DNA from: a virus
DNA length: 64,000 bases
Reading direction: 5' to 3' (one strand)
IMG/VR virus record: IMGVR_UViG_3300020411_000003
This document shows positions 43,443-63,603 of the stretch, in pieces. The stretch's first letter is position 1, and the number at the start of each line of letters is the position of its first letter. The notes under the pieces were generated by a model that saw only the letters and a list, made by a program, of their open reading frames with translations, had not been told where the DNA came from and did no database searches. A program made the position numbers and the translations under genes.

Positions 43443-45135
43443 CAGACTTGTTAGGAACCTTGACTAACTTTTGAATTTCTGGGAGATACATATATTCGAT
43501 CTCGCTTGTTTCTAATGTCTCTAACGCATCATGAATTGTTTCAACCAGAGGTTCACCTCCAAGATTGAAACTAGTGTTAAAGAGTATAGGTACACCTGTA
43601 ATCTTATCGAAAGCATCAATAAGTTTATAGTAGTGATCATTCTGTTCCTCCGTCACAGTTTGAATACGACATGTTCCATCAACATGAATAACTGACGGAA
43701 TCTTGTCTTCCACACCTTCATGACATCTAACTGCATACATCATGTGTGGAGTTTCTTCTCTTCCTTGAAGATCAAACCAATCATGAACATTCTCTTTCTT
43801 AATAGAACATGCAAATGGTCTAAACCACTCACGATGTTTAACACCATTAACAATATCCTTACCATCTTTAACAGTAGGATCAAAGAGAATAGATCTATTA
43901 CCTAAAGCACGAGGACCACCTTCAGATCTTCCTTGGAAGATAGTTACAATATTACCTTCACGAATAAGTGCAGCAACATCATCATAGGTAGTATCTTTTA
44001 CATCTAAACCAGCAATAGCTTCTTCATAAGTTGCAGGATCATACTGAGGACCATAGTAAACAGATGCTTGCTTTCTAGGTTCTTCATTATCAGTAAGTTG
44101 ATGTAACTTATAAAGTGCTCCACCGATAGATGTACCACCATCATGTGAGATAGGTTCACAATAGATGTTTAGATCAGGGAAGCGTTCCCAATACTTATAG
44201 TTTGCAACACAGTTAAGACCATAACCACCACAAACTACAATATTCTTTTCACCAGTTAACTCAACTGCTTTCTCAATCAACTGACACATACGTTCAGAAG
44301 TTTCTTCTTGAATCTTATATGCCATATCCTTTTGGATATCTGTATGATCAAGTCTCTCACCCTTTTGATGATATTTCATATCCTCAGAAAGGATAGGGAA
44401 TCTTGCTGCATTGATTTGAGCAGCATTAGGATATGTCGGTACAATTAGATCTCTATTACCCCAACCATCCCTAAAGAATGAAGGTAACTTATCATTTGGT
44501 TTACCATATGGAGCAAGACCCATAAGTTTACCTGCTTCAATAGCAGGGAACCCACAATACTGTGTTACTGCTTCATACATTTTAGTATGACCAGGATATT
44601 CAGTAATGAATGTATTAGGTTCTGGTTCATGGAAACCAATAGCAGCTTTAGTTCCTACATGCTTCCATACTTGCTCAAACTCTTCTGGATACTCTGCATG
44701 GAATATAGTTTCAAATTCATACAAGGTATCTGGAACCTCACTCATTTGTAAGAAACTTCCAGCACCATCAGCAATGACACAAGCAGCAGTTTCAAAACCA
44801 GAATTATAGAAACCACATGCAGCATGCATTTCATGGTGGTTTAAATCAATGTAAGTTGTTTCAAACGTAAATTTCTTACGAGCAATCTTCCTTACAAGAC
44901 CCTCATACATATGTTCACCAGTCCAATCAAGATTAGGACCAGATCTATGTGTATGGCAAACAACTAAGTGATCAATATGATCAACATATTCAAATGCCTT
45001 GAGGATACCTAACATAGGAGATCCATCATACTTAAATCTACTAAGTCTTTCTTCTTCGAGATAGAAAACTATCTCACCGTCTACCATTAGACAGGTACTA
45101 CCGTTGTGTCCACGTGCAACCGCTAAAATAATCAT
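43435..45135 (-). CDS. NodU/CmcH-family carbamoyltransferase 2
   Basis: HHEMHA, ADGAG, GKLMGLAPYG, GPRALGNRSIL, KHREWFRPFA, NTSFN. Confidence 0.93.
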   Translation of the reverse strand: MIILAVARGHNGSTCLMVDGEIVFYLEEERLSRFKYDGSPMLGILKAFEYVDHIDHLVVCHTHRSGPNLDWTGEHMYEGLVRKIARKKFTFETTYIDLNHHEMHAACGFYNSGFETAACVIADGAGSFLQMSEVPDTLYEFETIFHAEYPEEFEQVWKHVGTKAAIGFHEPEPNTFITEYPGHTKMYEAVTQYCGFPAIEAGKLMGLAPYGKPNDKLPSFFRDGWGNRDLIVPTYPNAAQINAARFPILSEDMKYHQKGERLDHTDIQKDMAYKIQEETSERMCQLIEKAVELTGEKNIVVCGGYGLNCVANYKYWERFPDLNIYCEPISHDGGTSIGGALYKLHQLTDNEEPRKQASVYYGPQYDPATYEEAIAGLDVKDTTYDDVAALIREGNIVTIFQGRSEGGPRALGNRSILFDPTVKDGKDIVNGVKHREWFRPFACSIKKENVHDWFDLQGREETPHMMYAVRCHEGVEDKIPSVIHVDGTCRIQTVTEEQNDHYYKLIDAFDKITGVPILFNTSFNLGGEPLVETIHDALETLETSEIEYMYLPEIQKLVKVPNKSDD

Positions 45136-47319: not shown

Positions 47320-48222
47320 TTAGTTTTCGTCGTACTTGTAATTGATACGGATCATACCAGAAGTACCATTTTGACCGTAGCAGCATCCACCACCACAAGT
47401 CCATCCAGAAGGACCACCAACACCAGGAACAAAGTTGTGATCAGAGAATGATCCACCCCATCCTAATTGTGCAGTTGACCAATGAAGTAAGCAATAACCA
47501 CATCCACTGTTTTCACATTGGATACCAGTCATCCATCCACCCTTACCGTTAACTAATCCAGCAGGATAAGGAACATGTTGCTTATTATAGCAATGCTGAT
47601 TATAACAGAAGAGATAAGCAGCACCAGGAACACCATATGCTCCACCGTCTGCACCGTGATAAGTTGCACAGCAACCACCAGGACAACTACTTAAACACAT
47701 ACTATTCCATGTGCAGCAGCATTGGAAGCAGCAAGAGCATCCTCCTCCACCACCTCTAGCACAGAAGTTACTTAAGTTTGGTCCAGTAATGTAGGTTGAG
47801 TTACCTTGATTACCACACTGACTACCAGTTCTACCGCAACCAGGAGTACCAACGCAAAGATCGTAAACGCAATTTGCTAATACGTTCTTATCACATTGAA
47901 TACGTTTCCAAGCATATGCACCAGCACCAGCAGGAATACCACGTGAGCAGCAGCATGAAGAACCACCGCCTCCACCAGCACCCCAGATCTCAAAGATAAC
48001 ATCACAAACCCCAGTTGGAACACACCATTGAGGATATCTATAGTAGTTGTAATTTGTAGAAAATTCACTACATGTAGATCCACAAGCACCAACAAAGTAC
48101 TGAACACAATAACCTTCAGAAGGTAATTTTGCTAGTTTTGTTGTAGCGTCAGGAGCAGAAAGTCCTTCTAACGAATCTGACGTGACGAATCCTAATAGAT
48201 CTCGTAAATTAGTGTTTGGCAT
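47320..48222 (-). CDS. Cys/Gly-rich protein A
   Basis: W.VP.GV...FEIWGAGGGGG glycine-rich fibre motif; 32 Cys in 300 aa (manual count). Confidence 0.8.
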   Translation of the reverse strand: MPNTNLRDLLGFVTSDSLEGLSAPDATTKLAKLPSEGYCVQYFVGACGSTCSEFSTNYNYYRYPQWCVPTGVCDVIFEIWGAGGGGGSSCCCSRGIPAGAGAYAWKRIQCDKNVLANCVYDLCVGTPGCGRTGSQCGNQGNSTYITGPNLSNFCARGGGGGCSCCFQCCCTWNSMCLSSCPGGCCATYHGADGGAYGVPGAAYLFCYNQHCYNKQHVPYPAGLVNGKGGWMTGIQCENSGCGYCLLHWSTAQLGWGGSFSDHNFVPGVGGPSGWTCGGGCCYGQNGTSGMIRINYKYDEN

Positions 48223-48246
48223 TCTTAAGTTCCTCTATCCTCTTAT

Positions 48247-49185
48247 TTAGTTAAAGTAGTACCAAGCGCAGTCTTCATTCGAAGTTTCTGACTTTAACCA
48301 GCAGGAGCAGTAAGTGATTCTAATTAGACCACCGCCTCCACGCCATCCGTAACAGCATCCACCGCCACAAGCAGTAGCAGAAGGTGAACCAACACCAGGA
48401 AGACCTGGACCACCGTTACAGTTAATGTTGTATGCCCAAGGAGTTGTACCTGTGCAATACATGTATTCATGGATGCATGCATTACCCTGATAGTTCTGAG
48501 TAATATGTCCACCCAAGTTGTTAATCAAACCAGCAGGATAAGGCATCATACCTTTAGCCCAACAGTTATTACCATCACAAGCATTGTACATAAATCCAGG
48601 TTTACCCTTGATCATGCAATCTCCACCGTAGGAACATGCACCATCACTATGGAGGTTCCATCCACCACATCCACCCCAAGAAACTTTATCTTGGCATCTA
48701 TATGTTGAGTTCCAGAATGCCCAGCAGCATGTCTTACCAGGAAGTCCACCATCAGCACAGAGGTTACTTAAGTTGCAACCACCAACCCATGTCTTACATC
48801 CTCTAATACCACAGCAGCATCTAGAGCAACAAGTTGTTGATGCAACGCAAAGTTGATAACACCAACCACCTCGTATTTGGGGATACTCTAAAGTCTTACG
48901 TACATATCCACCAGCACCACCAGGAATACCCTGTTGACAGCAGCAAGCACCACCGCCTGAACCGCCACCACCCCACAACTCGAAGGTTGCTTGAGTAGTT
49001 CCACAAGGAACGCACCAATATTGAATACAATAGTTTCTGTAACTATTGTCACAGTTACCTTGTGTACAATAAGGGTGGAATAAGAACACCCTACCTTCGT
49101 GATTCCTTTCTAACGCAGTATTTTCTGCTACGGTTTGATCGATTGTTGAGGCAAACTCTCTGCCTAATAGTTCTCGTAAATTCAT
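48247..49185 (-). CDS. Cys/Gly-rich protein B
   Basis: Paralog of A; 35 Cys in 312 aa. Confidence 0.8.
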   Translation of the reverse strand: MNLRELLGREFASTIDQTVAENTALERNHEGRVFLFHPYCTQGNCDNSYRNYCIQYWCVPCGTTQATFELWGGGGSGGGACCCQQGIPGGAGGYVRKTLEYPQIRGGWCYQLCVASTTCCSRCCCGIRGCKTWVGGCNLSNLCADGGLPGKTCCWAFWNSTYRCQDKVSWGGCGGWNLHSDGACSYGGDCMIKGKPGFMYNACDGNNCWAKGMMPYPAGLINNLGGHITQNYQGNACIHEYMYCTGTTPWAYNINCNGGPGLPGVGSPSATACGGGCCYGWRGGGGLIRITYCSCWLKSETSNEDCAWYYFN

Positions 49186-49204
49186 TGTACTCTTATATCT
49201 CCTA

Positions 49205-50131
49205 TTAGGTCTTGCAGAATAATGTTACTCTCACGAGACCGTGAGCACCCTCAGAGGAGCAGCAGCAACCGCCACCAAACACCTGAGCAGATGTACCACC
49301 AGAACCAGGAACACCGTTTCTCCAACAGTCTCCTGATAGTCCACCATTGTTACCACTCATCCATAATGTTTGTCTTCTACCACAAGATGCCATATCAGGT
49401 TTTCTTGCAGCATTAACAACACCATAACGAGCACCAAACATAGGAGGGTTAGGATGATAATCCTTCTTCATGCACCAGTTACCGCAACCAGGGTTGCAAT
49501 CATAATGAATGTATGGTGAAAGACCGTTCCAATACCACTTACCAGCTCTCTCACATGATTCCATGCAATCGCTGCTCTTAAGGTCATAATGCTCATACTG
49601 TCCTCTACAGCAAGCAGGACCACATTGATGTATCCTTGTCCTACAAGCGAAGTATGAATCAACCCAGTGACAACAGTTCCAACCGTGACAACCACCACAA
49701 GCACAGAAGTCACTTAATCCAGGACCACTAATGTATGACTTACATCCGTCAAAACCACCTCTAGATGGGTGACGACATGTACCACCTGCTACACAGATGT
49801 CATAACAGCATCCATCTAATTGGGAGACTCCTTGTACTTGAGCACAAACTGTACATGATTGATACTGTCCAGAGAACCCGTTCCAAGCAATTGAACAACA
49901 ACATGTACCAGAGCCTCCTCCTCCACCGCCCCAGAGTTCGAACTTAACTTTACAAATGCAGCAGTTTGGAACGCACCATCTTATACGCTGCCAGTCATAG
50001 TTGTAAGAACTTCCGAACTCCCAACAGTGGTTGCCTCTGTAATATAATTGATGTTGCCCACCACCCATATAAGTCTGAATAGGGACTATATTGGCATCAG
50101 GTACATCTAATAAATCTCGTAAACTTGACAT
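49205..50131 (-). CDS. Cys/Gly-rich protein C
   Basis: Paralog of A and B; 35 Cys in 308 aa. Confidence 0.8.
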   Translation of the reverse strand: MSSLRDLLDVPDANIVPIQTYMGGGQHQLYYRGNHCWEFGSSYNYDWQRIRWCVPNCCICKVKFELWGGGGGGSGTCCCSIAWNGFSGQYQSCTVCAQVQGVSQLDGCCYDICVAGGTCRHPSRGGFDGCKSYISGPGLSDFCACGGCHGWNCCHWVDSYFACRTRIHQCGPACCRGQYEHYDLKSSDCMESCERAGKWYWNGLSPYIHYDCNPGCGNWCMKKDYHPNPPMFGARYGVVNAARKPDMASCGRRQTLWMSGNNGGLSGDCWRNGVPGSGGTSAQVFGGGCCCSSEGAHGLVRVTLFCKT

Positions 50132-50891: not shown

Positions 50892-53800
50892 TCAAACAGA
50901 CCCTGCCCAGAAGACGTATCCTTTAGTCGTACGTGTTGTATCGACGTAAGTCTTAACAGCACGTTGTGTAGGAACTTTTTGGTTTGAGTTAGCAGAAAGT
51001 GTAACGTCAGAAGAGAATTCTGTGATACTTTCACCCAACTGAGCACCGATAGAACCCAATCTCAAGGATGACAGACCAGATAGGTCAAAGGATGATGCGT
51101 TCAATGTAGTTGAACCAGTTGCCTGGTTGACCTTGAAGTAACGTCCAACAGTGAAGTTACCATCTTGGTCTGTTGATACAAAGAATACACGTCCTGGGAA
51201 GTCCTCAGTAACTTCATTACCTGGTGCTGGATCCACTAATGGATCTCCAGGCCAGTTAGTTTGTATTTTGTTTCCTGTACCTAAGTCTAGGAAGTCATGA
51301 CCAGTTAGACGAACCTGACTGTAACCATATCTGATCTTATAGTCCTGTCCATCAAAGGTTCTTGTAGGTTTCTCAGCAGCAAGAACAATTAGTGCAGTAC
51401 CAGTTGTATCTGTCTGTGAGTTTGTCACCTGCATGAACTCATTATCAATCTTGATGTAGTCGTTGATATTGAAACCAGAAGCATCAGTGATACGGATATC
51501 TGTCTGAGAGTTATTAATATCTCTCAAGGTATCTGTCTGATCGACAACTTTAATTTCAATAGCACGAACTGAATCGCCACTGGTATGAGCAGTAGCATTA
51601 GTTCCTTCAACTCCACGAGTAACATCCATAGATGTTGCTGTTGGGAATGAAGTGATTGACATCATTTCATCATTGATAATACAATATGCTCCGATTGAGA
51701 ATCCACTAATTGTATTAACATAGATTGTTGTGTCTGAAGCACTGTTAACAGCAGAACTCAAGTTAGTAGCACCACCGTACTGATATCTGGTAATTAATTC
51801 CAAACCATCATGTGCAGCAGCTGCACTACCTAGAAGTCCTCTAGTAGCAGTCAAGTTACCTCTTCCAGCAGGAGCAGTGTAAGAAGAGTTAGCAATAACG
51901 AATGTAAATGGTTCTTCACCAAGTCCACCAGCACCAGTAACGAATTCAACTGAACCACCTGGAACAGGAGCAGATCCTCTACCAGTTATGGCAAGTACGA
52001 ATCCATTCTGTCCACCGACAGCATCAGCATTGTTAACTAGGTTACCTTGAACTCCAGAAGTTTGACCATCAATAACTTCGTTTTGTACGAATGTTCCTTT
52101 GAAAGGTCTATAAAGAATCTTAGAAACACCTGCTTGTACTGAGATGATTTCTCCCACAGCACCAGATGTTAATCCGATAACTCTTTCACCTGTCAACCAA
52201 ATACCATCGGTTGCACCAGGAACGATTGTTGATTCATCATATTCAAGTGATAAACCATCGATCTTACCATCGAGAGTTGTTTCATTAGTATCGAATCCAG
52301 AAGAAACAATACCGTATGTACCCCAAGAACTGTTACCAGCAAGAGATCTGATTCTTCCACCTCTGGTAGAAGCATAAGAAACATGACAGTAGTAAGTGAA
52401 GCAAGATACAATTTCAGCACCTGCCTTGTTAGTACACCAGAAACCAACTCCACCATCTTCGTGGATTTGTGTCCAAGAGTCAAACACCATTGTTTTGTTT
52501 GATCTATTATCAAACGTAACAGCATTTGCAGAAGCACTTACAAATGTATGTGCATACTGATCAGCAGGAGCAGCAATACCTACGTTAACTGTAATAGTTG
52601 TTGCATCTGCTGCGGTGATTAGAAGTTCCTTACCAAATGCAGGGTCAGTTGTACGTGGATATGCATGGTTAGATGCACCACCGTTCTTAGTACAATTGAA
52701 TGTAATAGATGCTTGTGCTAACTGAATACTAGATCCAGTAGTAAGTCCATGACCTGAACCAAGAGTAAGAGTTAAATCACCAGTCGAAGGATTGTAAGTA
52801 GCACCAGTTGGTGTAAACTGTGCGGTATTATCCCACTTAGCGTGAACGTCACCATCAATAACAGCACCAACACCTGTTGCACCGAAGCAAGAACAGTTAG
52901 AGACATAAGGTGATCTCTTAATTGGTGAGTTAGGATCTAGACGTACATAAACACCACCAATTGTAGCAGTGTTAAGATCTTTAGGATCAGACAAAGAAGG
53001 AACGAATCCAACCATTCCGTCCATAACCATGTCCTTAAGCATAGTGGTGCTTCCTAGCATCCACATAGTTAAGTTTTCGTTGTTGATAGGTGTTACACTA
53101 CTGATAGCGATATCTGTAGCACCTGCTTCATATGTGTCTGAAGTTGTCCAGAGGTTAGCATTAGCTTCTCTAGTTACACTTCCAAGTCCTGAAGATAATC
53201 CAGTTGTTGCAACTGTAACTAATGTGTTAATAGCAGCATCTTGAACAACACAGGTTGCCTGTCCATAATTATTGATATCTGTAATAGTCTCGTTCTTAAC
53301 CTGACCTAATCCATGTGTACCTTGTACAGTAATGGTTGTATTGTTAATTACATCTTGAGCAAGAGGAGTAAAGTATCCTAAGACAGAAACAACTTCTGCT
53401 TCGTTACCATTCCAGTAGTTAGTAGTAATCCAATCATCAACTGTATCATAAACACGGTCGTTACCACCATAACCTAAGTTAGCAGTGATATCCTGAACAA
53501 GAGTAGCAAGTTTGCTCTCAAATACAGAAGCATCTCCACCAGGAGGGTTAGTAATAGTAACACCACCAGCAGCAGCTTGTGCAATAGTTTCTTTGACAAG
53601 GAACTGTGTGTTAGATGTTAATAAGTTATATGCGTCACCAGTTTTGTTATTAACAAATCCATCGGTCTGAACATAAATGTCAGAACCACCTTCTCTAACG
53701 TCAATAACTTCACCAGTCTTACTTCCATCACCAGATGTGATACTAGAACCAAGAACTCTATACTGAGCATCAGGTACTTGTGCAAGAGTAAGTTTAACAA

Positions 53801-54983
53801 CACTTGAAGGTTCACCAGCTCTTGCTTGAATCCTTGAGGTTCTTAGGTTATCACCAACGATACCTACACCTTCAGGAACCCTCATTGGAAGGATTTCGTT
53901 ATATGTACCTGCTTTAACGTAAATTGTTGCAGGACCAGTTACATTATCTACAGCGTGACGAACTGTTTTCCATGCTGCTGTAATACTATTACCAGCATTA
54001 AGGTCAGAACCTTCTGGAGTAACATAATAAACTTTATGTGTAACGTGACTCTCTTTCCATGATGGATATCCTGTTGAGTCAACAGTTAAAACTTTATTCT
54101 CTGTACCAATAGGCAATCTAGCAGGACCAGCACCACCTTGATAAAGAACGTCACCAGATGTTGTTAGAACGTTTGCTGATGCTCCTTCTGCTAATGAATT
54201 CCAATATGTACCATTAGTATCTGTTTCTGGAGCCTGTGCAGAGTTTTCTGTAACACAAATATGTGAGTTACTATTTCTAGTAACAGCATCACCTGGATAA
54301 TAAGTTGTACCTACATCCCAAGTACCTCTCCATGTGAATCCTCCAACAATGAAATCCCAATCACTTGGATTACTGGAAGGAGAACTATTAATGTTTGTTG
54401 TTTTAGCAACGTAAGAGTTACCACCTAAGAGAACAACATCACCTGGAGCATATGTTGTAGTAGAATTCCAGTTACCAACAACCTTGAAACCTGTGGTTAG
54501 GATATCCCACTGGACACCGATACCGTTATTTGGCTGAATAGCGGTACTAGTTTGAAGAGCGATGTATGAATAACCACCGTATGTTACGATGTCACCTTTC
54601 TGATACTCTGTGGCAGAATCCCAAGTATCTTCAAACTTAAGACCATCCAAGTAGGCAGAGAACTTAGCAGGATCGAAAGTTGCCGTTGATGTGTGAGGAG
54701 TAGTAGTTCGATAAAGAACGTTACCGTATTTTACGATATCATTGTTTTTATAGAACGTAGTAGCAGCCCATTCACCAGCATTGTAAATCCCTTCGGTGTG
54801 AAGCGACCAACTTCCAGCGTCAGTTCCGTACCATTGAGATGCCGTCGAAACCGATGTGTGGTTTACGGTAGCAACATAAGTGTTAGCACCAAATTTAACA
54901 ATGTCATCGATGACATAAGCAGTGTTAGCTGCCCAGTCACCTCGCCAGTTAAATTTTAGTCTTCCAAGTCTAAAATCTGCCAT
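50892..54983 (-). CDS. 1363 aa tail-fibre/receptor-binding-like protein
   Basis: About six N-terminal W...T.Y..GD.V..G..Y (CBM5/12-like) repeats; YYV..EGSD.N.G...AWKT beta-helix start; C-terminal VPTQRAVKTYVD. Confidence 0.8.
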   Translation of the reverse strand: MADFRLGRLKFNWRGDWAANTAYVIDDIVKFGANTYVATVNHTSVSTASQWYGTDAGSWSLHTEGIYNAGEWAATTFYKNNDIVKYGNVLYRTTTPHTSTATFDPAKFSAYLDGLKFEDTWDSATEYQKGDIVTYGGYSYIALQTSTAIQPNNGIGVQWDILTTGFKVVGNWNSTTTYAPGDVVLLGGNSYVAKTTNINSSPSSNPSDWDFIVGGFTWRGTWDVGTTYYPGDAVTRNSNSHICVTENSAQAPETDTNGTYWNSLAEGASANVLTTSGDVLYQGGAGPARLPIGTENKVLTVDSTGYPSWKESHVTHKVYYVTPEGSDLNAGNSITAAWKTVRHAVDNVTGPATIYVKAGTYNEILPMRVPEGVGIVGDNLRTSRIQARAGEPSSVVKLTLAQVPDAQYRVLGSSITSGDGSKTGEVIDVREGGSDIYVQTDGFVNNKTGDAYNLLTSNTQFLVKETIAQAAAGGVTITNPPGGDASVFESKLATLVQDITANLGYGGNDRVYDTVDDWITTNYWNGNEAEVVSVLGYFTPLAQDVINNTTITVQGTHGLGQVKNETITDINNYGQATCVVQDAAINTLVTVATTGLSSGLGSVTREANANLWTTSDTYEAGATDIAISSVTPINNENLTMWMLGSTTMLKDMVMDGMVGFVPSLSDPKDLNTATIGGVYVRLDPNSPIKRSPYVSNCSCFGATGVGAVIDGDVHAKWDNTAQFTPTGATYNPSTGDLTLTLGSGHGLTTGSSIQLAQASITFNCTKNGGASNHAYPRTTDPAFGKELLITAADATTITVNVGIAAPADQYAHTFVSASANAVTFDNRSNKTMVFDSWTQIHEDGGVGFWCTNKAGAEIVSCFTYYCHVSYASTRGGRIRSLAGNSSWGTYGIVSSGFDTNETTLDGKIDGLSLEYDESTIVPGATDGIWLTGERVIGLTSGAVGEIISVQAGVSKILYRPFKGTFVQNEVIDGQTSGVQGNLVNNADAVGGQNGFVLAITGRGSAPVPGGSVEFVTGAGGLGEEPFTFVIANSSYTAPAGRGNLTATRGLLGSAAAAHDGLELITRYQYGGATNLSSAVNSASDTTIYVNTISGFSIGAYCIINDEMMSITSFPTATSMDVTRGVEGTNATAHTSGDSVRAIEIKVVDQTDTLRDINNSQTDIRITDASGFNINDYIKIDNEFMQVTNSQTDTTGTALIVLAAEKPTRTFDGQDYKIRYGYSQVRLTGHDFLDLGTGNKIQTNWPGDPLVDPAPGNEVTEDFPGRVFFVSTDQDGNFTVGRYFKVNQATGSTTLNASSFDLSGLSSLRLGSIGAQLGESITEFSSDVTLSANSNQKVPTQRAVKTYVDTTRTTKGYVFWAGSV

Positions 54984-54994
54984 TTGTTTTTCCT

Positions 54995-55399
54995 TTACTT
55001 AGGTCCCTCGGTTGTATAATCGTAAGTTTCATTAAAACGAACAGTAAAATATCCGTTATCATCTATAAAGTAGGTTACTTTTCTACTGTCAAATCTGTAT
55101 TGTTGATATTGATCTTGTGGATGATTCACATATGATTTAGATTCTGTAGTTTCTTCTACGTAATCTGTCATTCCAGTTGCAATATCTAGGTACGGAGTAC
55201 CGTCTTTACGATGGAAAGTTACTACATCGTCATCAATACTTCTGATTTTAGTGTAGTTAAGCATGCCATCAGCATCTCTGCTTAAAGCATGTATGGTGAA
55301 ATCGTTTCCAAGATCATAGTTGTTGCTGGCAAAACCGCCACCACCACCGCCAGTGCTAGTGCCACCGCCTCTAAAACTATCGCTAATGTACATTGTCAT
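54995..55399 (-). CDS. hypothetical structural-region protein
   Basis: ATG 55399 overlaps the upstream stop (ATGA). Confidence 0.7.
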   Translation of the reverse strand: MTMYISDSFRGGGTSTGGGGGGFASNNYDLGNDFTIHALSRDADGMLNYTKIRSIDDDVVTFHRKDGTPYLDIATGMTDYVEETTESKSYVNHPQDQYQQYRFDSRKVTYFIDDNGYFTVRFNETYDYTTEGPK

Positions 55400-55857
55400 G
55401 TGACAATAACCCTCCAGTAAACTCCTTCCCAAATAAGTTGAACACCTGCGCCTTTAACGTCAAATACCAGTGGCGATGAAATTACACCAAACGTATTTTG
55501 AAATTGTCGTCCGATAGGGTCCGTCAGAGTAACATTATTTATATCCCAACTAAACTTTACATCAATAAACTCAATTACGTCTCCAGACTTAGGGACTAAT
55601 TGATTATTGTAAAGTGGAAGTGTTAACGAGAGAGGACCGTTAGATGAATCAACGAGATAACGAAGGCTTGTTCCTAGAGTTTGATTAGAATTAATATATT
55701 CCCATCGTGCTCTAAAAACGTCAAATCCACCAGTGGTGGTTCCGTCATGAATGACGGCCATATTTTTATCAGTATCAATCGTCAGTTCACCTTGCGCACC
55801 AGTAAAAAGTGCATGTTCAGCTGTAGTACCTCTTCGGAATTGAACCTGAGTTGTCAT
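55396..55857 (-). CDS. Mtd-N/hyaluronidase-N-like domain structural protein
   Basis: QVQFRRGTTAEH..FTGA.GELTIDTDK...HDG.T.GG. Confidence 0.8.
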   Translation of the reverse strand: MTTQVQFRRGTTAEHALFTGAQGELTIDTDKNMAVIHDGTTTGGFDVFRARWEYINSNQTLGTSLRYLVDSSNGPLSLTLPLYNNQLVPKSGDVIEFIDVKFSWDINNVTLTDPIGRQFQNTFGVISSPLVFDVKGAGVQLIWEGVYWRVIVT

Positions 55858-55899
55858 CAGTGATTATTCGATACCAAGTATATTTATGAGATATTTATA

Positions 55900-58800
55900 T
55901 TAGATGATCCAACCATAAGATCTTGGTGGTGCAACTTGTATGCGTCTTGTGTCAGCATCACCAACGTGTAGAATAATTCCACCTTCGGATACAAATCTCT
56001 GATAAGGTGCAATAACTGTAGTTGAAACGTCAATCTCAATTGGGCAGTGTCCGTCGTAACTGAAGACACGGAGGACTTCTGCACTTGAGAGAGAAGGTAT
56101 GTTGCCTGAACCAACAAATGCCTTGACAATAAGAGGAACATTGTCCTCTTCGAAGACATCGATTCTTCCTGTACCCTCTTCGATTCTTGTGATACTGGAA
56201 GCAGATTCTCCATAAATTTGTGCGGAACCTTCTCCAACATATCCTTTCCTTGTGAAGGATTCTGCACCTGATCCTCTGACCTCGACAGTAACATCTGTAA
56301 GAATGTTTCTTGTAACTGCCTGTCTTGCAACACCCAAGAAGTCGAAGATTGCAACATTCTCGACTGCAATTGCTCTGGATTCGGATGCATTGTTCCATGT
56401 GAAGAATGATCCAGTTCCAACTGTGACTCTTGTTCTTGGAGTATCCGCAGCACCAAATACATGTACAACTCCATAGAGTTCTGGAGAGAATGTAATTGTT
56501 TCTGCTGCACCAGAGAAGTTGTATAGATTTCCAAATCCTGAGTATGCTTCTGTATGTTTCTCGTCTGCAACACCAGAAATAGTAAGATTGACTTGAGAAG
56601 TCCAGTCAAATGTGCGACGTTCAATACTAGTGACGAAGTTGAATAGATTTCCGAATCCAACTTCTGCGTATGTTGTTGCTTCCTCTGCACGACCCTTGAA
56701 TGTAAAGAGTCCTGTTGCTTCTGGTACAACTCCAACACTTTCCGAAGCACCAGAGAATGCAAAGAGTGTACCAAATACAATCTCTCTTCTGACAACAACC
56801 TGACTTGAAACACCACCAATAGAGAATAGTGCGGTAGTCTCGTCTGGGTTGACAGTGAAACTCTCTGAAGCACCACTGATGTTGAAGATACGTCCTTCTC
56901 CAACAAAGTCCTTTGCAATACGTTCGGATGTATCGACATCGACGTAGATAGTACCAGAACCAATATTGTTTGGTGTAAATCTCTCGAATGCCTCTCCAGT
57001 AATATCGAGTGGTACTGGTACTTCGTCTGGACTCCATACAACATTTTCTGTTGCCCTTGTGCCACCAATAGAGAATAGTAACTGTCTCTCTTCTGGATTG
57101 AAGGTAACACTTTCGGATGCACCACTGATATTGAAGATGCGTCCTTCTCCAATAAAGATTTTGGTACGAGAGAATGTTGAAGTAACATCGATTGTTGTAG
57201 TACCAGAACCAATCCAGTTTGGAATGTACTTGACACTTGCTGTACCACGTACTTTGGATTCGATGGTGAATCTTTCGCTGAAGGTTTGTTTGAATGAACC
57301 AAACCCTTTGAACACCATGTCTGCCTGGAATTCTGGCAGAACGAATGTAACAGACTCTGATGCACCACTGATACTGAAGATTCGACCTTCGCCAACCCAA
57401 ACCTTCGTCTTGGATGAAGTACCAGCACCATAGATATCGACTTCGATTCTTGGTTGCTCTGCAAATGTGAGGATTGGTTCTGTAACTTCTCCAAAGATTT
57501 GAAGATTTGCTTGACCAATCTCTCTGTATGTGGCACTGATACCTGCTTTCTCTGGACGGAATGCAATATCTGCTTGGAATGCAGGTATCTTGATTGTAAT
57601 AGCTTCGTCTGCTGCTCCAATAGAGAACAGTCCACCTTCTCCAAAGTGAATATCGACGTTGACAACAATCGCATCTCCACTGAGATAGATGTCTCCAAGT
57701 GGTTGTTCTGCGAATGTAAGTAGTGGATCCGCAATCTCTCCAAAGACTGTGAACGAACCAAATCCAATATTGCCACCAAAGGTGAAGCTCTGAGTGACAG
57801 CACCCTTGAGAACTGCGTCTGCTGTAAACTCTGGAAGTTTGAGAGTAAAGGATTCTGCTGCACCACCAACAGAGAAGACCTGACCATCTCCTGTGTAAGC
57901 GTGTGTCCTGAGAATATCTGCTTGACCGTATACTTCTGTACGACCAAATGGTTGCTCTGCGAATGTAAGTATTGCAGGACTTGCTGTTCCACGTACTTCT
58001 GTGTGAACCAGACCAGCAATAGCAATTGCACGACTCTCGTCGAGACGACCTGTAAAGTCGAATAGTGCTCCAAGTTCGAGTGGGTTGAATGTAACCGCTT
58101 CGACTGCACCACTGAAGTTGAAGATTCGACCTTCGCCAGTCCAATGCTTCGTAATAAGTGGTACGACAGAAACGTTGAATATCTCTGTATGAGATTGACC
58201 AACCCAATCGTCTGTCTGTCTTTCGATTGCAGTACCAGAAAGATCGATATCGACAGTAAACTGTTCTGAAGCAGTAAACTTCTGACTTGCAAGTCCACCA
58301 AATGTAAGATCTGCTTGGAATGCAGGTATGTCGATTGTAATCGCTTCTGCACTCTGACCAATAGTGAATAGGTTTCCAGATCCATGGAAGTGGAGACTGA
58401 AACTTTCGGCCGCAGTACCAGAAACATCTGTAACAACGAATCTGAATACGTCTGATACAACTGCCTCTTGACAAGTACCAGATAGTTCCATATGAGCAGA
58501 ACCAACTTCTGCTGTGATGAACTTGAGATCTGTGTAACCACCAGCAAACTTGAATAATGGTGGTGTTGTTGGAGGAATAACAACAGTACATTCTGCTGCA
58601 CCACTCCAAGTCCAAAGTGTTGGATCGTTGGTAACCCACTGAGGTGGTACACGAACTTCTCCTTCGGCACGAATCTTGATCGCATGATCCCATTCGGTAG
58701 CATCCGATATAAAGATCTTGGTCTGAGAATCGTGTGCAAGAGAAGTAAAGCTGACAAGTTTTCCAAATGGGTATTCGGAAACTTTTGTACGGATGGAACT

Positions 58801-61353
58801 GATGACAGAAGTAAATCCGTAATCCTCTCTTACCGTTGCACCAGGATCTGTAATCGATCCACAATCGTGGATTGTTGTTGCTCCACCTGAGAGCCAAGGA
58901 TCGATTTCGTATGTCTGACCAAGAGGTATGGTTGCAACAACACCATTGAGACCAATTCTGATAATAGAAGTTGGTGATGTACCAGAGATATTCTGACTTG
59001 GTGTGATCTCGGTAATAGTACCGACACCAGGTAGACTTGCATAATCTCTGTACTCGTATAGATTCGTGGAAGAATCGTTGTAAGAGTAAGTTCTTCTCTT
59101 CTCTGTACTGATAAGAGTAGGTAGAACACCTGTACCTTCGTAAGCAAAGGATCTAAGTACAGGTTCTGCCGTTCCATCAGAAGCCCAAAGAGTACCAAAG
59201 GCATTCCAGTTAGGTGCGAATCTAACGTCAGCAACACCTCTAATTGGGAATAGAGCCTGTTTCTCATCTGGATTGAAGGATACAGATTCAACTGCTCCAC
59301 CAATCTTGTAAATCTGACCTTCACCAACGTAGTCAAATACACGTGAAGCTTCAGCATATACAATACTAAAGGCACGACCTTCACCGATGTATGGTCTAGT
59401 AACACTATAGGTTGCCTCACCAGTAACATCAATTGGAATAAATCCATTCCACTGTGGGTTGATACGTACCCAAGTCTCGGAACGAATCTTGATCGCTGCA
59501 TCGAATGTAATCTCTGCAACAAATCCTTTGGTTTGTGATGTATGTGTATTGCCAGTATAAAGGAATCCACCAAAAGGATACTGCCATACTGTCTGAGAAA
59601 TATATCCCCAATCAATATTTCCAGAGTAACCTTCAGCAACACTACCGTAATCAAAGGTAGAACCTGGTGTGTAATTAGATACAAGAGATACAGTGTATTC
59701 TGGATCTACTACCGCAACAACACCAACGTTGATTCTGACAACGGATCCTGTAGATGTACCTGAGAGGATCGTATTTGTAGTGATCTCCTCGATAGTAGCA
59801 GTTCCTGGTAACGGACCGAAGTCTGTATAACCAAATGGAACGATAGAACTATCGTTGTAATCCCATGTAACTCTCTCGTGGTATGCATCTCCAGTAAATA
59901 CAGGAATGACACCAAATGGTTGCTCACCAAATGTTCTCTTGACATTAGTGACTTCACCTGTGACAGGTATAGTACCAGAACCTCTCCAGTTAGGTACAAA
60001 GTTAACCTTGACGTTAGATTGTAGTGGAGCAATACCACCAGTACCAACGTAATCTGTGGTAACTCTCTCTTCACCACCACCAATTTTGTATAGGTTACCA
60101 GTACCCTCATAAGAGAATACAAATGCCTCGTCTGCTCTGGAGAAGTTGAACAGTACACCAGATCCAATTTCATTAGCAGTGATTCTCTCTGTGAGAACAC
60201 CACGAACCATACTCCTGACGAATCCATTCCATCTAGGTTTGGTTCTTCCTCTACCTTCACCCTGTACCTTGATTTCACCACGACCAATCCAATTAGGTAC
60301 GTAGTTTTGTTTAGCAGTACCCTTAAGTTGACCGATACCGTATGGGAACAGAGTACCAGTGATACTAAGATAACCCCAGTCAAGGTTGGTTGTCTTACCA
60401 ACAGATACTGGAGCATGTTCAATCGCAGTGGTATATGTACCAGAATGCGGTGCAACCTTAAATCCACCTGGATCTACAGTTGCAGTTATTGTAGGATTAA
60501 CTTGTACAACAGAACCAGTACTTATACCTGACAGTACTTGGTTTGTAGTAATGATTTGATAGGACTGTATCGGAATCGTTCCGTAGTCCTCATATTCGAA
60601 TGGAACAACAGCAGAACTATTATATGCGTATGTTCTTCTGTTATCTTCGCTATTAATATTAGGTAGAGTACCTGAACCCTCAAATCCAAATGTACGCTTA
60701 ACTTCTGAGACTTCTCCAGATATCTGGGCTGTACCTGATCCCACCCAGTTAGGTCTAAAGGAAACCCCTGCGTTACTTCTGAATCTGAATAGTCCTTTGG
60801 ACTCAATAGCAATACTTCTAGTAACTGTACCAGAACCAATCTTGTACAGTTCACCTTCACCAACTTCATTCTTCGCAAAAGATTCAGTAGTGAGGGACTG
60901 GATCCCAAACAGTCCAAAGACTTCGATGTCTGGAACCCAGTGTGTAACCGCACTGCCTGTAACTCGTACTGTACCAGTAACGATCCAAGGAGCCACCAGA
61001 CGATAGTAGGTGTCTCCCATTTCGAAGACAGTACCAGAACCAACCCATGCATGTAGTACTGTCCACTGTGTCGCAGTTTTCGGTCTGATAGTACCGAACG
61101 GACGGACAATATCCGTGTAAATTATTCTACCCCAATCATCAACTTCTACAGCTTCTACATCGTTGATAGATCCACCGTCAATAACGGTAGTGGGTGTTAA
61201 TGCTAATGAATTTAAACCGTAATCAAGTTCTATAAACGGTTCAATGCATGAAGGATCCCATGTATATGATGCTCTCTCACCACTAAAAATACGCAGCGCA
61301 AAACTAGACCCATAAGGTCCACCTATACCAGTTGTATAGACATGCGTTGCCAT
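55900..61353 (-). CDS. 1817 aa beta-repeat protein; distal half has all three sense frames open
   Basis: Recurrent G.G.I...G...E..TF units; SD-like GGAGGG upstream; protein-like composition only in this frame. Confidence 0.85.
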   Translation of the reverse strand: MATHVYTTGIGGPYGSSFALRIFSGERASYTWDPSCIEPFIELDYGLNSLALTPTTVIDGGSINDVEAVEVDDWGRIIYTDIVRPFGTIRPKTATQWTVLHAWVGSGTVFEMGDTYYRLVAPWIVTGTVRVTGSAVTHWVPDIEVFGLFGIQSLTTESFAKNEVGEGELYKIGSGTVTRSIAIESKGLFRFRSNAGVSFRPNWVGSGTAQISGEVSEVKRTFGFEGSGTLPNINSEDNRRTYAYNSSAVVPFEYEDYGTIPIQSYQIITTNQVLSGISTGSVVQVNPTITATVDPGGFKVAPHSGTYTTAIEHAPVSVGKTTNLDWGYLSITGTLFPYGIGQLKGTAKQNYVPNWIGRGEIKVQGEGRGRTKPRWNGFVRSMVRGVLTERITANEIGSGVLFNFSRADEAFVFSYEGTGNLYKIGGGEERVTTDYVGTGGIAPLQSNVKVNFVPNWRGSGTIPVTGEVTNVKRTFGEQPFGVIPVFTGDAYHERVTWDYNDSSIVPFGYTDFGPLPGTATIEEITTNTILSGTSTGSVVRINVGVVAVVDPEYTVSLVSNYTPGSTFDYGSVAEGYSGNIDWGYISQTVWQYPFGGFLYTGNTHTSQTKGFVAEITFDAAIKIRSETWVRINPQWNGFIPIDVTGEATYSVTRPYIGEGRAFSIVYAEASRVFDYVGEGQIYKIGGAVESVSFNPDEKQALFPIRGVADVRFAPNWNAFGTLWASDGTAEPVLRSFAYEGTGVLPTLISTEKRRTYSYNDSSTNLYEYRDYASLPGVGTITEITPSQNISGTSPTSIIRIGLNGVVATIPLGQTYEIDPWLSGGATTIHDCGSITDPGATVREDYGFTSVISSIRTKVSEYPFGKLVSFTSLAHDSQTKIFISDATEWDHAIKIRAEGEVRVPPQWVTNDPTLWTWSGAAECTVVIPPTTPPLFKFAGGYTDLKFITAEVGSAHMELSGTCQEAVVSDVFRFVVTDVSGTAAESFSLHFHGSGNLFTIGQSAEAITIDIPAFQADLTFGGLASQKFTASEQFTVDIDLSGTAIERQTDDWVGQSHTEIFNVSVVPLITKHWTGEGRIFNFSGAVEAVTFNPLELGALFDFTGRLDESRAIAIAGLVHTEVRGTASPAILTFAEQPFGRTEVYGQADILRTHAYTGDGQVFSVGGAAESFTLKLPEFTADAVLKGAVTQSFTFGGNIGFGSFTVFGEIADPLLTFAEQPLGDIYLSGDAIVVNVDIHFGEGGLFSIGAADEAITIKIPAFQADIAFRPEKAGISATYREIGQANLQIFGEVTEPILTFAEQPRIEVDIYGAGTSSKTKVWVGEGRIFSISGASESVTFVLPEFQADMVFKGFGSFKQTFSERFTIESKVRGTASVKYIPNWIGSGTTTIDVTSTFSRTKIFIGEGRIFNISGASESVTFNPEERQLLFSIGGTRATENVVWSPDEVPVPLDITGEAFERFTPNNIGSGTIYVDVDTSERIAKDFVGEGRIFNISGASESFTVNPDETTALFSIGGVSSQVVVRREIVFGTLFAFSGASESVGVVPEATGLFTFKGRAEEATTYAEVGFGNLFNFVTSIERRTFDWTSQVNLTISGVADEKHTEAYSGFGNLYNFSGAAETITFSPELYGVVHVFGAADTPRTRVTVGTGSFFTWNNASESRAIAVENVAIFDFLGVARQAVTRNILTDVTVEVRGSGAESFTRKGYVGEGSAQIYGESASSITRIEEGTGRIDVFEEDNVPLIVKAFVGSGNIPSLSSAEVLRVFSYDGHCPIEIDVSTTVIAPYQRFVSEGGIILHVGDADTRRIQVAPPRSYGWII

Positions 61354-61378
61354 TAATTCAAATACCCTCCACTAAAAT

Positions 61379-61407
61379 AAAAAAGGGGATCCAGTAATGA
61401 ATCCCCT
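61379..61407 (-). terminator. intrinsic terminator after the 462-aa gene
   Basis: GGGGATT-cattactg-GATCCCC followed by T6. Confidence 0.75.
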
Positions 61408-61438
61408 CACACATAATAATGAATTCAATTCGAACCAA

Positions 61439-62827
61439 TCAGTCGAGGCTGACGTTCAAGGTTACTTTAATTTGGTCACCTGCGTTCTGAATAGCGTAAG
61501 GACCATTCGTGAATCTCTCAGCGAAGAATATCGCATCATAGAGCGTCACAGAACCTGTACCATCAAGTGCTTTAGTAGTTGTGAAGGTATTTGCATCAGG
61601 TACTTCAAATACAATGTAAGTACCAGCAGTAGTTGTGGTATTACCTGTTCCCTGATCGATATAAACTGCATCGCCAGGAACTAATCCATGACCTGTAGCA
61701 GTTACTTTACTAAAGTCAAACTTAACAACATCATTACCGTTAGAAGTCTGAATGTTTTCAATCAGAACGTTATTGAGGTAAACAGTAACTGTTCCGTCTG
61801 CGTCATCAGTCTCATAATCGATACCAGTAATGACTGTGTTGGCATCAATACCATTAGGTGTAGTTGTTTGAGAAACTCTCATTCCAAGAGCAAGGTCTTC
61901 AGCGACATTTGCTTGGAATACTAAGTCACCACTAACAGCACCACCGTTTGCTTTGCTTAGATAAACTGTAGTACCAACGATTCCAGTAACACGTGCTCCC
62001 TGAGCAACGTTAGTTCCTGTAACACGCTGATCAACAGCAACACCAGTTGTAGATGTAACAACAACTTCGAACTCACCAGCAGTACCAGTAGCAGCAGTAG
62101 TAGCAGCAACAGCAGCAAGAGTAATGTAGTTGTTACCGATAGTTCCTCTTACACCAGACTTAGAAATCTGTGTTCCAGTAGCAGCAGTACCAGCATCAGC
62201 CACACCGTGAATGGTTGTAGGCATGTTGTTAGCACGTGAGAGGAAATAACCGTATACGTTACCAGCAGGACCATCAAAGGTAAATGTTTGCTCAGGATAA
62301 GAAGCAGTTGTTCTACCTCTACCAAAACTCAATGGTTGTGCAGTGAAGTTACCAGTGTTCTTAACACTTAAGTTAAGTGTAGTACCATCAATGTCTACAA
62401 CGTATGCACCAGTGCCGACAGAACCACCAGTAACATAGTCACCTTTTTTAATACCTGTGTTAGAAGCAACCGTAACTAGGTATGTACCAGATGTACCATC
62501 ACCATTAGTTGTAGTGACCGCAGTAGGCTCAGTTTCGATGCCCCAACGGTTACCGTTTAAAAGGATACCATACTGCTGTGCATAATCCTGATCAGTTCTA
62601 TTATTGATGATGCCAGGATAACCTGTAGTAGGTGCTCCACCATAACCGTTAGTGTTATTTTCGGTGTATGGTTCGAAATATCTTGTTTGAGAGGGAGTAT
62701 CACTCTCAGCAGGATATGTATCTGTTGTAAACAGCTTCAGAATAAGGTTTCTGGGAATGTTTTGAGAATAATTCAGCAGATTCCTTAAAGAATCAATTTC
62801 GCCGTTGTCGGTTACTAAGAGTGCCAT
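61439..62827 (-). CDS. 462 aa virion structural protein with internal Thr/Gly repeats
   Basis: Late promoter at 62864; repeated V.VGxxVTG...GA.V..I.GTT..LS units. Confidence 0.75.
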   Translation of the reverse strand: MALLVTDNGEIDSLRNLLNYSQNIPRNLILKLFTTDTYPAESDTPSQTRYFEPYTENNTNGYGGAPTTGYPGIINNRTDQDYAQQYGILLNGNRWGIETEPTAVTTTNGDGTSGTYLVTVASNTGIKKGDYVTGGSVGTGAYVVDIDGTTLNLSVKNTGNFTAQPLSFGRGRTTASYPEQTFTFDGPAGNVYGYFLSRANNMPTTIHGVADAGTAATGTQISKSGVRGTIGNNYITLAAVAATTAATGTAGEFEVVVTSTTGVAVDQRVTGTNVAQGARVTGIVGTTVYLSKANGGAVSGDLVFQANVAEDLALGMRVSQTTTPNGIDANTVITGIDYETDDADGTVTVYLNNVLIENIQTSNGNDVVKFDFSKVTATGHGLVPGDAVYIDQGTGNTTTTAGTYIVFEVPDANTFTTTKALDGTGSVTLYDAIFFAERFTNGPYAIQNAGDQIKVTLNVSLD

Positions 62828-62883
62828 TGGTTAACCTTTCCTAATTACGTTGCTATGTATGATTATTTATAACCACGAGGTAT

Positions 62884-63603
62884 TTATAGTTTTATCCTTA
62901 GTGCAACGCTAGCTTTACTGATGTTCAGCACATGGTTTACGTTGAATCTAAAGATGTCACCAGCATTAACTGTGGTGTTCCAAGTCGAAAGATTATCATC
63001 TTTCGCTTTTATTTCTGTAGAGGTATTTAGTACACCTAACTTTGGTGTTTCTGTACCTGTTATTGAAGTGAAATTCGGATAATCATCATACGCACACTTC
63101 AATATATCTATCTCAATATTACCTGCAATGTCTGCTACTAGAATCCAAGACTCGATAGTACCAGTAACATCAATTGCCATATCACCCTTTGGTCCAATTG
63201 CCATTGGGAATGATCCAGCATCGATAACAAAATTGAGAGTTCTAGTTAAATCTGCTGTTGTAACTAAAGCAACACCAGAAAATCTATGACCAGAAGTAGG
63301 AGGAGTACTAAAAACAATTTGATCGTTTGAAACGATATAGTCTGTATTTGGTTTCAGAACTACATCATTAATAGAGATCAATAATTGTTGTTCATCTATT
63401 GGTGTATATGGTGATCCGTCAACGGAAAGACTGAATGTGTCTTGTGTACCATCAAATCCACCAGAGATATCATCAAGAATTAAGTTTGTATACTGTGTAG
63501 ACTTGGTTGGAATCTGATAATTAACATCCAAGTTATACGCAGGGTTCTCTCTTAGAGCAACACTATGTTGCTGAGATCCAACTCTGACGGTATACTCTGC
63601 CAT
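62884..63603 (-). CDS. structural protein with baseplate/fibre-associated domain
   Basis: LDDIS..FDG...TF.L, LLISINDVVL.P..DY, IVFSTPP. Confidence 0.7.
   Translation of the reverse strand: MAEYTVRVGSQQHSVALRENPAYNLDVNYQIPTKSTQYTNLILDDISGGFDGTQDTFSLSVDGSPYTPIDEQQLLISINDVVLKPNTDYIVSNDQIVFSTPPTSGHRFSGVALVTTADLTRTLNFVIDAGSFPMAIGPKGDMAIDVTGTIESWILVADIAGNIEIDILKCAYDDYPNFTSITGTETPKLGVLNTSTEIKAKDDNLSTWNTTVNAGDIFRFNVNHVLNISKASVALRIKL

What the first reader, a model, noticed from the sequence alone, without database searches (positions are those of the whole stretch)
56039..59152. Multi-kilobase tract with no stop trinucleotide in any sense frame inside the 1817-aa gene
Seen directly: from 56630 to 58829 (2200 nt) the coding strand has no TAA, TAG or TGA in any frame. 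The real ORF, a 960-codon +1 ORF (55884-58766) and a 756-codon +2 ORF (56627-58897, open upstream to 59152) all overlap. Across 56039-59152 only four stop triplets occur (58830, 56627, 56621, 56606). The adjacent 5' part of the same gene has about one per 18 nt (about 8 in 59153-59290), so on the order of 100 would be expected. The avoidance depends on context, not on general codon bias. T-ending codons stay common (GGT GCT, ATT GGT GGT GTT) but are swapped before AA/AG/GA (GGC GAA, GGA GAA, GTC GAA, ACG AAG, TCG GAA, GTC AGA), whereas the 5' half writes the same dipeptide as GGT GAA. TAC, TAT, TGG and TGT remain, and the antisense strand keeps its stops, so the stop triplets themselves are being avoided. 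Inference: selection keeps frameshifted ribosomes, or frameshifted gene copies, translating. Possible reasons are programmed or stochastic frameshifting that gives alternative C-termini, tolerance of paired compensating indels as a diversification reservoir in a virion protein, true triple-coding, or ribosome coverage of a long mRNA. The alternative-frame products (R/W/C/S/Y-rich and L/V/Q/S-rich) do not look like ordinary folded proteins. I know of no described phage system like this.
Basis: partly seen in the sequence, partly recalled or inferred. Interest (0 to 1): 0.95.

Follow-up and report, generated by a model that had tools for sequence, protein, structure and literature searches.

The report
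Off-frame stops purged from fibre gene
A giant repeat-protein gene of marine cyanobacterial viruses has, by ongoing natural selection, lost almost every stop triplet from its two unused reading frames, most likely so that ribosomes that slip by accident add a long junk tail instead of releasing a short stub that would spoil the virus particle, which is the reverse of the textbook expectation.

Summary
Observation confirmed. The tract 56039-59152 has 4 off-frame stops against 106±7 in synonymous shuffles; 56630-58829 has none in any frame. The gene is a Kyanoviridae (S-CAM1-like) tail-region repeat protein.

The purge holds in 52 homologues down to about 30% identity and is ongoing: 0/95 stop-creating silent sites are polymorphic versus 28/94 controls. 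The +1 frame is also purged in the 5' half.

The extra frames do not behave like genes: no conserved starts, no amino-acid constraint, no frame-swapped blocks, no programmed slippery site.

What I add: (i) tRNA-slip contexts (T|TTC, TTT|C, A|AAG) are purged too. (ii) A stop's cost depends on its distance to neighbouring same-frame stops, saturating at 32-36 codons in both frames. (iii) -1 slip sites are rarer when a +2 stop follows within 30 codons (odds ratio 0.63, 7/7 lineages), not when one precedes.

Best reading (about 0.5): "anti-ambush" error control. Accidental frameshift products with short tails poison assembly; tails beyond about 35 residues neutralise them. Translation and harm are inferred, not shown. 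The scan noted this constraint earlier in a related genome (e1-5362478, e1-5362470). I found no paper on it.

The parts
55900..61353 (-). 1817-aa virion-module protein (phrog_11522): about 20-aa Gly-x-Gly beta-repeats (83-aa higher period) interrupted in the N-terminal half by DYG..DWG insert domains; conserved C-terminal tip; probable oligomeric fibre (inferred)
   Evidence: about 30% identical to S-CAM1 N330309_099 and 25-33% to the S-CAM3 homologue; AlphaFold monomers failed
56630..58829 (-). core tract with no stop triplet in any of the three sense frames (2200 nt)
   Evidence: 2142-2209 nt in 13 close relatives with a complete tract
55884..58829 (-). +1 frame open for 981 codons, ending just past the gene's stop in the AT-rich spacer
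   Evidence: expected about 25 stops in codons 841-1574 alone
56627..59152 (-). +2 (= -1) frame open for 841 codons; its 5' edge wanders between codons 733 and 859 among close relatives
56036..56605 (-). second open block of the +2 frame (189 codons)
56606..56629 (-). cluster of three +2-frame stops; other lineages carry the cluster about 510 codons from the end instead, or both
58830..59705 (-). +1-frame open tile (291 codons) ending at the single stop 58830-58832 inside the last insert domain
59709..60473 (-). +1-frame open tile (254 codons) ending in an insert domain
60522..61121 (-). +1-frame open tile (199 codons); upstream of it (first 77-90 codons) off-frame stops and slip contexts are at normal frequency
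55892..55899 (-). T4-type late promoter consensus TATAAATA directly after the stop codon; serves the downstream genes and, with the AT-rich spacer, closes both alt frames
   Evidence: ATAAATA within 40 nt of the stop in 52/52 homologues
61373..61408 (-). intrinsic-terminator-like G-C hairpin plus U-run just before the gene's start; suggests low expression by read-through (inferred)
   Evidence: present in 19/19 homologues checked
55396..55857 (-). downstream 153-aa tail protein (phrog_9648; Mtd_N domain in homologues)
50892..54983 (-). downstream 1363-aa tail-fibre gene; control with normal off-frame stop density
61439..62827 (-). upstream 462-aa conserved gene (phrog_10467); control with normal off-frame stop density

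Best explanation
Anti-ambush error control. Ribosomes slip out of frame at low rate anywhere along this 5.4-kb mRNA (inferred). If they meet a stop within a few codons they release a correctly made N-terminal piece of the repeat fibre with almost no foreign tail; such a stub can still co-assemble and spoils a multi-copy virion part (inferred). If they run on for more than about 35 codons, roughly the length of the ribosome exit tunnel and of the loose tail AAA+ proteases need (own knowledge), the junk tail blocks assembly or marks the chain for removal (inferred). Selection therefore removes slip-prone codon pairs (shown) and isolated off-frame stops (shown). A stop next to another stop costs almost nothing, so stops survive only in clusters, and the gaps between clusters grow to kilobases as a by-product (pattern shown, cause inferred). 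The sequence of the alt-frame products does not matter.
For: Ongoing purge: 0/95 silent sites carry a stop-creating T in any of 13 genomes versus 28/94 free sites (p=3e-10), while the 5' half shows 13/37 versus 31/84. Met followed by an A-codon, a forced +1 TGA, is 0/33 versus 292/996 elsewhere. Slip contexts: T before TTC 0.03-0.08 versus 0.31-0.39 in other genes, while T before TTA/TTG, TCT or CTT is not purged; TTT before C 5/191 versus TTT before G about 0.70, which points to tRNA re-pairing, not DNA runs. Both purges start only after about codon 90. A cost of the form c*L*(1-exp(-a/L))*(1-exp(-b/L)), with a and b the distances to the neighbouring stops, fits best in both frames with L=36 and 32 codons and c=0.16 and 0.13, symmetric, absent in 30 control long genes; a discrete-zone simulation gives L=81-101 for +2 and 0.8-0.9 instead of the observed 0.40 for medium-spaced stops. 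-1 slip sites are rarer when a +2 stop follows within 30 codons (odds ratio 0.63, all 7 lineage groups below 1; logistic 0.72, bootstrap 0.43-1.14) but not when it precedes (1.23).
Against: No translation of the alt frames and no harmful stub has been observed. The protein's structure and oligomeric state are unknown. The same cost formula also follows from an out-and-back excursion model. For the +1 frame a two-state model fits almost as well (1694 vs 1685). The fits treat related genomes as independent. It is unexplained why other long structural genes of the same phages do not do this, why +1 stops gather in the insert domains, and why a single +2 stop persists about 511 codons from the end in six S-CAM1-like genomes where the model says removal pays.
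Confidence: 0.5

Rival explanations
1. The alt frames make useful products (overprinted genes or programmed alternative C-termini, for example length-matched partners, tethers or protease decoys) whose length matters more than their sequence.
For: Blocks of 300-1100 open codons recur in distant lineages; the main +2 block ends in a narrow zone about 500-550 codons from the stop in many of them; alt-frame translations align at 25-35% between lineages, though the shared main frame can explain that.
Against: No conserved ribosome-binding site plus start, no internal late promoter; no slippery heptamer in the 3' half, slip contexts purged; third-base usage in permitted contexts equals other genes; silent polymorphism 28/94 versus 31/84, p=0.34; terminal stops are not retained above controls; block edges wander and gap sizes are continuous; no family match.
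Confidence: 0.17
2. Out-and-back rescue: a ribosome that slips returns to frame within about 35 codons, and the fibre tolerates a short junk patch of the right length, so open frames rescue full-length chains.
For: Gives the same saturating two-sided cost formula; the protein tolerates change (pN/pS 0.31-0.42 versus 0.02-0.08 in four neighbours and 0.20 in the tail fibre); stops are tolerated in the globular inserts.
Against: Needs two rare errors, so it should not make one slip site measurably cheaper when the frame ahead is open, yet that coupling is seen; slip sites are not favoured where they could act as return sites; repeat glycines are conserved.
Confidence: 0.12
3. Ribosome coverage: off-frame ribosomes must stay on the mRNA to protect it or to couple translation of downstream genes.
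For: The +1 frame runs past the gene end in most homologues and stops close to the next start codon; narnavirus reverse ORFs are a precedent for translation mattering more than product (PMC8316113, title and abstract only).
Against: Downstream genes have their own late-promoter core in 52/52 homologues; in-frame ribosomes already cover the mRNA; does not explain the 35-codon scale, the slip-site purge or why upstream long genes are normal.
Confidence: 0.08
4. Diversification reservoir: open frames let paired genomic indels rewrite stretches of a host-recognition protein.
For: The protein evolves fast; off-frame stops do limit indel outcomes in a Bacillus loop experiment (PMC13006647).
Against: No compensated frameshift block in 1.74 Mb of alignments (four chance hits of 15-16 nt); no alt-frame match to any of 120 homologous proteins or to the main frames of the fetched loci; only a 3-nt indel among close relatives.
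Confidence: 0.03
5. Chance, base composition, assembly artefact or avoidance of a nuclease motif unrelated to translation.
For: The effect is weaker in low-GC lineages.
Against: 4 versus 106±7; present in cultured S-CAM1 and S-CAM3; strand-specific; exactly the three stop triplets with TGG, TAC, TAT kept; differs between frames in the 5' half.
Confidence: 0.01

Closest known systems
Ambush hypothesis for out-of-frame stops (Abrahams and Hurst 2018, PMC5909447; Poehls et al. 2025, bioRxiv 10.1101/2025.10.02.679949)
   Same: Selection on off-frame stops and on slippery codon contexts as a defence against accidental frameshifts.
   Different: The sign is reversed. Those papers report stop excesses typically in AT-rich genomes and selection for shorter frameshift products; here an AT-rich gene loses about 96% of off-frame stops, and slip sites avoid having a stop just ahead.
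Ambigrammatic narnaviruses (DeRisi et al. 2019, PMC6884476; PMC8316113)
   Same: Kilobases kept free of stops in an extra frame across diverged viruses by silent changes, with no known protein function.
   Different: There it is one frame on the reverse strand of an RNA virus. Here it is both shifted frames of the same strand in a dsDNA phage, including +1, which DeRisi et al. show cannot be fully cleared by single silent changes; the antisense strand is normal.
Overprinted genes and programmed frameshift products of viruses (review PMC5009743; e.g. about 300 nt of bovine parainfluenza virus 3 P gene read in all three frames)
   Same: Long overlapping open frames on one strand.
   Different: No conserved entry signal, no protein-level constraint, graded rather than discrete blocks, slippery sites purged; length is about ten times greater.
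Mycobacterial PE_PGRS genes low in off-frame stops (PMC13328622)
   Same: Gly-rich repeat surface proteins with few off-frame stops.
   Different: That paper attributes the loss largely to GC pressure. Here GC is 43-48%, the null controls for codon usage, and purifying selection is seen in polymorphism.
T4-like tail and collar fibres (gp34, gp12, fibritin; own knowledge)
   Same: Long repeat protein between baseplate and neck genes, beside Mtd_N and tail-fibre genes.
   Different: No sequence match to any solved structure; T4 fibres assemble from a C-terminal trimerisation domain, whereas my model needs N-terminal stubs to be assembly-competent.

Membership tests
Overprinted (dual/triple-coding) gene | Long alternative ORF conserved across diverged homologues | tested here: met
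Overprinted (dual/triple-coding) gene | Conserved initiation signal or promoter for the alt ORF | tested here: not met
   best shared SD+ATG/GTG column holds 5 closely related genomes of 35; no internal late promoter
Overprinted (dual/triple-coding) gene | Suppressed silent variation and amino-acid constraint in the alt frame | tested here: not met
   28/94 vs 31/84, p=0.34; third-base usage as in other genes where no stop or slip is at stake
Overprinted (dual/triple-coding) gene | Detected protein product | not testable with these tools
   needs mass spectrometry or ribosome profiling
Programmed ribosomal frameshift cassette | Conserved slippery site at the entry of the open frame | tested here: not met
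   0 X XXY YYZ heptamers in the 3' half (4 expected), no run of 5 or more bases; remaining slip contexts are scattered, the one small peak being Arg-Lys pairs
Programmed ribosomal frameshift cassette | Fixed 5' edge of the open frame | tested here: not met
   last +2 stop varies from codon 733 to 859 among 90%-identical relatives; such stops are poorly retained
Programmed ribosomal frameshift cassette | Stimulatory RNA structure or internal Shine-Dalgarno | not tested
   no candidate shift site to anchor the test
Ambigrammatic ORF (narnavirus type) | Stop-free codon-aligned ORF on the reverse strand | tested here: not met
   opposite strand keeps 404 stops in 55-62 kb, longest gap in the window 125 nt
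Ambigrammatic ORF (narnavirus type) | Absence of stops conserved without conservation of the encoded protein | tested here: met
Ambush-type error control | Excess of off-frame stops, especially after slip sites | tested here: not met
   strong deficit; odds ratio 0.63 for slip site with stop just ahead
Trimeric beta-helical phage fibre | Regular beta-repeat sequence in a tail/neck gene module | tested here: met
   Gly period 20 and 83 residues; gene context
Trimeric beta-helical phage fibre | Oligomeric intertwined fold | tested here: inconclusive
   monomer models pLDDT 29-30; no PDB relative
Trimeric beta-helical phage fibre | Presence in the virion | not testable with these tools
   no S-CAM1/S-CAM3 virion proteome found in the searched library

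The most novel reading that the evidence does not exclude
Both shifted frames are translated at meaningful levels and their sequence-indifferent products have a role in building or protecting the fibre, making this a natural three-frame coding system nearly 3 kb long in a dsDNA phage.
Probability: 0.15. Interest if true: 0.97.

Novelty: categorically new. Interest (0 to 1): 0.82.

Why it matters
The standing view is that off-frame stops are neutral or favoured because they cut errors short. This family shows the opposite at extreme strength, in a cultured, testable phage (S-CAM1 on Synechococcus WH7803). If the best explanation holds, it reveals a bacterial-side substitute for surveillance of truncated subunits, written into silent sites, and gives a measured length scale (about 35 residues) for when a junk tail makes an error product harmless. 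It would also mean the sequence records natural frameshift rates: stop loss and slip-site loss can be read as a population-genetic measure of translation errors. Practically, recoding long structural genes could add hidden costs, and long overlapping ORFs in viruses need not be genes.

Tried and rejected
AlphaFold on the last 666 and last 300 residues gave unusable models (pLDDT 29 and 30), so no fold search was run. No PDB sequence match; ESM Atlas gave only unnamed viral clusters below 0.9. No whole genome is held for the window. No tRNA or tmRNA in the window, so no local recoding tRNA. Defined exits: tested by retention of terminal stops, not above controls; no shared peptide or start codon at exits; last five residues of long +1 products are no more hydrophobic than those of short ones. 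Apparent alt-frame amino-acid biases vanished with context-matched controls. Return sites near exits: none. Circular or spliced RNA: contigs from three RNA libraries laid on the S-CAM1 gene showed no indel and no credible joint, but cover was patchy and contigs cannot show absence. UV-dimer or homopolymer avoidance as cause of the T|TTC purge: T|TCT, T|CTT, TTT|G are not purged. Ten literature searches found no description of this feature; subscription journals are largely not covered.

Full report
Observation. On the coding (minus) strand, 56630-58829 has no TAA, TAG or TGA in any frame, and 56039-59152 has four. Shuffling synonymous codons within the tract gives 105.8±6.6 off-frame stops, never fewer than 85 in 5000 runs, and never a gap above 393 nt. 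Twenty-two other genes of the window match their nulls within about 3 SD, and the opposite strand is normal.

What the gene is. The 1817-aa product belongs to phrog_11522. Among annotated phages it matches only Synechococcus phages S-CAM1 and S-CAM3, Kyanoviridae, but a profile search finds 462 proteins in the 50%-identity library, up to 3800 aa long. It lies between baseplate and neck genes, next to an Mtd_N protein and a tail fibre. It is built of about 20-residue Gly-x-Gly repeats, with globular-looking DYG..DWG inserts in the front half. It evolves fast (pN/pS 0.31-0.42 against 0.02-0.08 for four neighbours). A terminator-like hairpin precedes it in 19/19 homologues checked and a late-promoter core follows it in 52/52. 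That it is an oligomeric virion fibre is inference; structure prediction failed.

Conservation and selection. Thirteen close relatives with a complete tract (88-90% nucleotide identity) keep a 2142-2209 nt desert; S-CAM1 has 1684+1473 nt and S-CAM3 1303+1203 nt. In 52 distinct homologues the last 800 codons hold 0-6 stops in +1 against 10-26 expected; +2 ranges from 1 of 54 to normal, weakest in low-GC lineages. Five of six more distant homologues show a graded deficit; the sixth (52% GC) shows little or none. In S-CAM1 it is the only one of 22 genes tested with long gaps. Selection is current: no stop-creating T allele at 95 silent sites in 13 genomes, against 28 of 94 free sites (p=3e-10); in the 5' half the two classes are equal. 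Even the protein is bent to it: Met is never followed by an A-starting codon in open blocks (0/33 versus 292/996).

The extra frames are not genes. Where no stop is at stake, third-base usage equals that of other genes and silent polymorphism is not reduced (p=0.34). There is no conserved start or internal promoter, no family match, no match of alt frames to any homologue's main frame, and no compensated frameshift block in 1.74 Mb of alignments. Entry edges wander and terminal stops are not kept above control rates.

Three clues to mechanism. First, slip-prone codon pairs are purged as well: T before TTC occurs at 0.03 in open blocks and 0.08 in the rest of the gene, against 0.31-0.39 elsewhere, while T before TTA, TTG, TCT or CTT is left alone; TTT before C is 5/191 while TTT before G is about 0.70. 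TTT before C or T is also rare in other long genes, so only the -1 contexts are special to this gene. These contrasts fit tRNA re-pairing, the main determinant of frameshifting in Poehls et al., and not DNA runs. So frameshifting is unwanted here. Second, the chance that a possible stop is realised depends on both neighbours: about 1.0 of control when both are within 15 codons, 0.40 when both are 15-40 away, 0.01-0.05 when both are over 40 away (+2 frame). A saturating two-sided cost fits best, with a length scale of 36 codons in +2 and 32 in +1, though the two frames differ about threefold in natural stop density and entirely in composition; control genes show nothing. Simulated discrete ORFs do not reproduce the +2 pattern; for +1 the test is not decisive. 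Third, the coupling has a direction: -1 slip sites are rarer when a +2 stop lies within 30 codons ahead (odds ratio 0.63, all seven lineage groups), not behind (1.23). Both purges begin only after about codon 90.

Best explanation (0.5). A slip followed soon by a stop is what selection removes. The simplest cause is a poison stub: a correct N-terminal piece of the fibre with almost no tail that still co-assembles. A tail beyond about 35 residues would have left the exit tunnel and offers a handle to proteases or blocks packing (own knowledge; not tested). Under this rule an isolated stop is costly and a stop beside another is nearly free, so stops persist as clusters and the gaps grow to kilobases without any function for their full length. 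The statistical patterns are shown; off-frame translation, the stub and its harm are inferred. Open points: related genomes were treated as independent in the fits; the out-and-back model shares the formula; a lone +2 stop persists in six S-CAM1-like genomes; and other long structural genes lack the feature.

Rivals. Functional alt-frame products (0.17) are favoured by the recurring block that ends 500-550 codons before the stop but lack entry signals. Out-and-back rescue (0.12) needs two errors and does not predict the directional coupling. Ribosome coverage (0.08) is weakened by the downstream promoter. An indel reservoir (0.03) and artefact (0.01) are close to excluded. About 0.09 is left for causes not thought of.

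Comparison with what is known. It works like an inverted ambush system: PMC5909447 finds stop excesses typically in AT-rich genomes, and Poehls et al. report selection for shorter frameshift products. It resembles ambigrammatic narnaviruses in keeping a frame open without a known product, but fails their defining reverse-strand feature. It fails the membership tests for overprinted genes and programmed frameshifts. PE_PGRS genes are low in such stops mainly through GC pressure. I found no paper describing this case. The scan itself recorded the constraint before in a related genome; those notes are not independent support, and I re-tested their claims here. The slip-site purge, the 35-codon scale and the directional coupling are not in the excerpts I was shown.

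Verdict. Real, conserved, under ongoing selection, and unlike any described system; mechanism plausible and directly testable in a cultured phage. Interest 0.82.

Noticed in passing
window 61373-61408 (-): Strong G-C hairpin plus U-run between the 462-aa gene and the fibre gene, with a similar stem in 19/19 homologues checked; probably throttles fibre-gene expression.
   Followed up: partly
L152 28922-37042 (S-CAM1 76921-85041, VrlC-like 2706 aa): Mild +2-frame stop deficit (269 vs 336, z=-6.5) without long gaps; may be a weak form of the same selection or a codon-context effect.
   Followed up: no
window 31635-36695, 50892-54983, 22697-25096 (-): Long structural genes avoid TTTT runs (4/36, 2/19, 1/12 observed/expected), and long genes as a class avoid TTT before pyrimidine more than short genes do.
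   Followed up: partly
window 41095-42798 and 43435-45135 (-): Two neighbouring Nol-like carbamoyltransferase genes, about 640 nt apart, inside the tail-fibre region.
   Followed up: no
window 47320-50131 (-): Three tandem paralogues of phrog_4205 (300, 312, 308 aa), preceded by two 107-aa genes.
   Followed up: no
window 62864-62888 (-): Two late-promoter consensus copies 17 nt apart in front of the 462-aa gene.
   Followed up: no
L019 and L029, fibre gene codons 1853 and 1744: Single +2 stops inside the second open block of S-CAM1-like genomes: rare polymorphisms or assembly errors, useful for measuring selection strength.
   Followed up: no
L150 6001-14793: A distant 2930-aa homologue with laminin-G domains, 52% GC and a different gene context shows little or no stop deficit; a natural outgroup.
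   Followed up: partly
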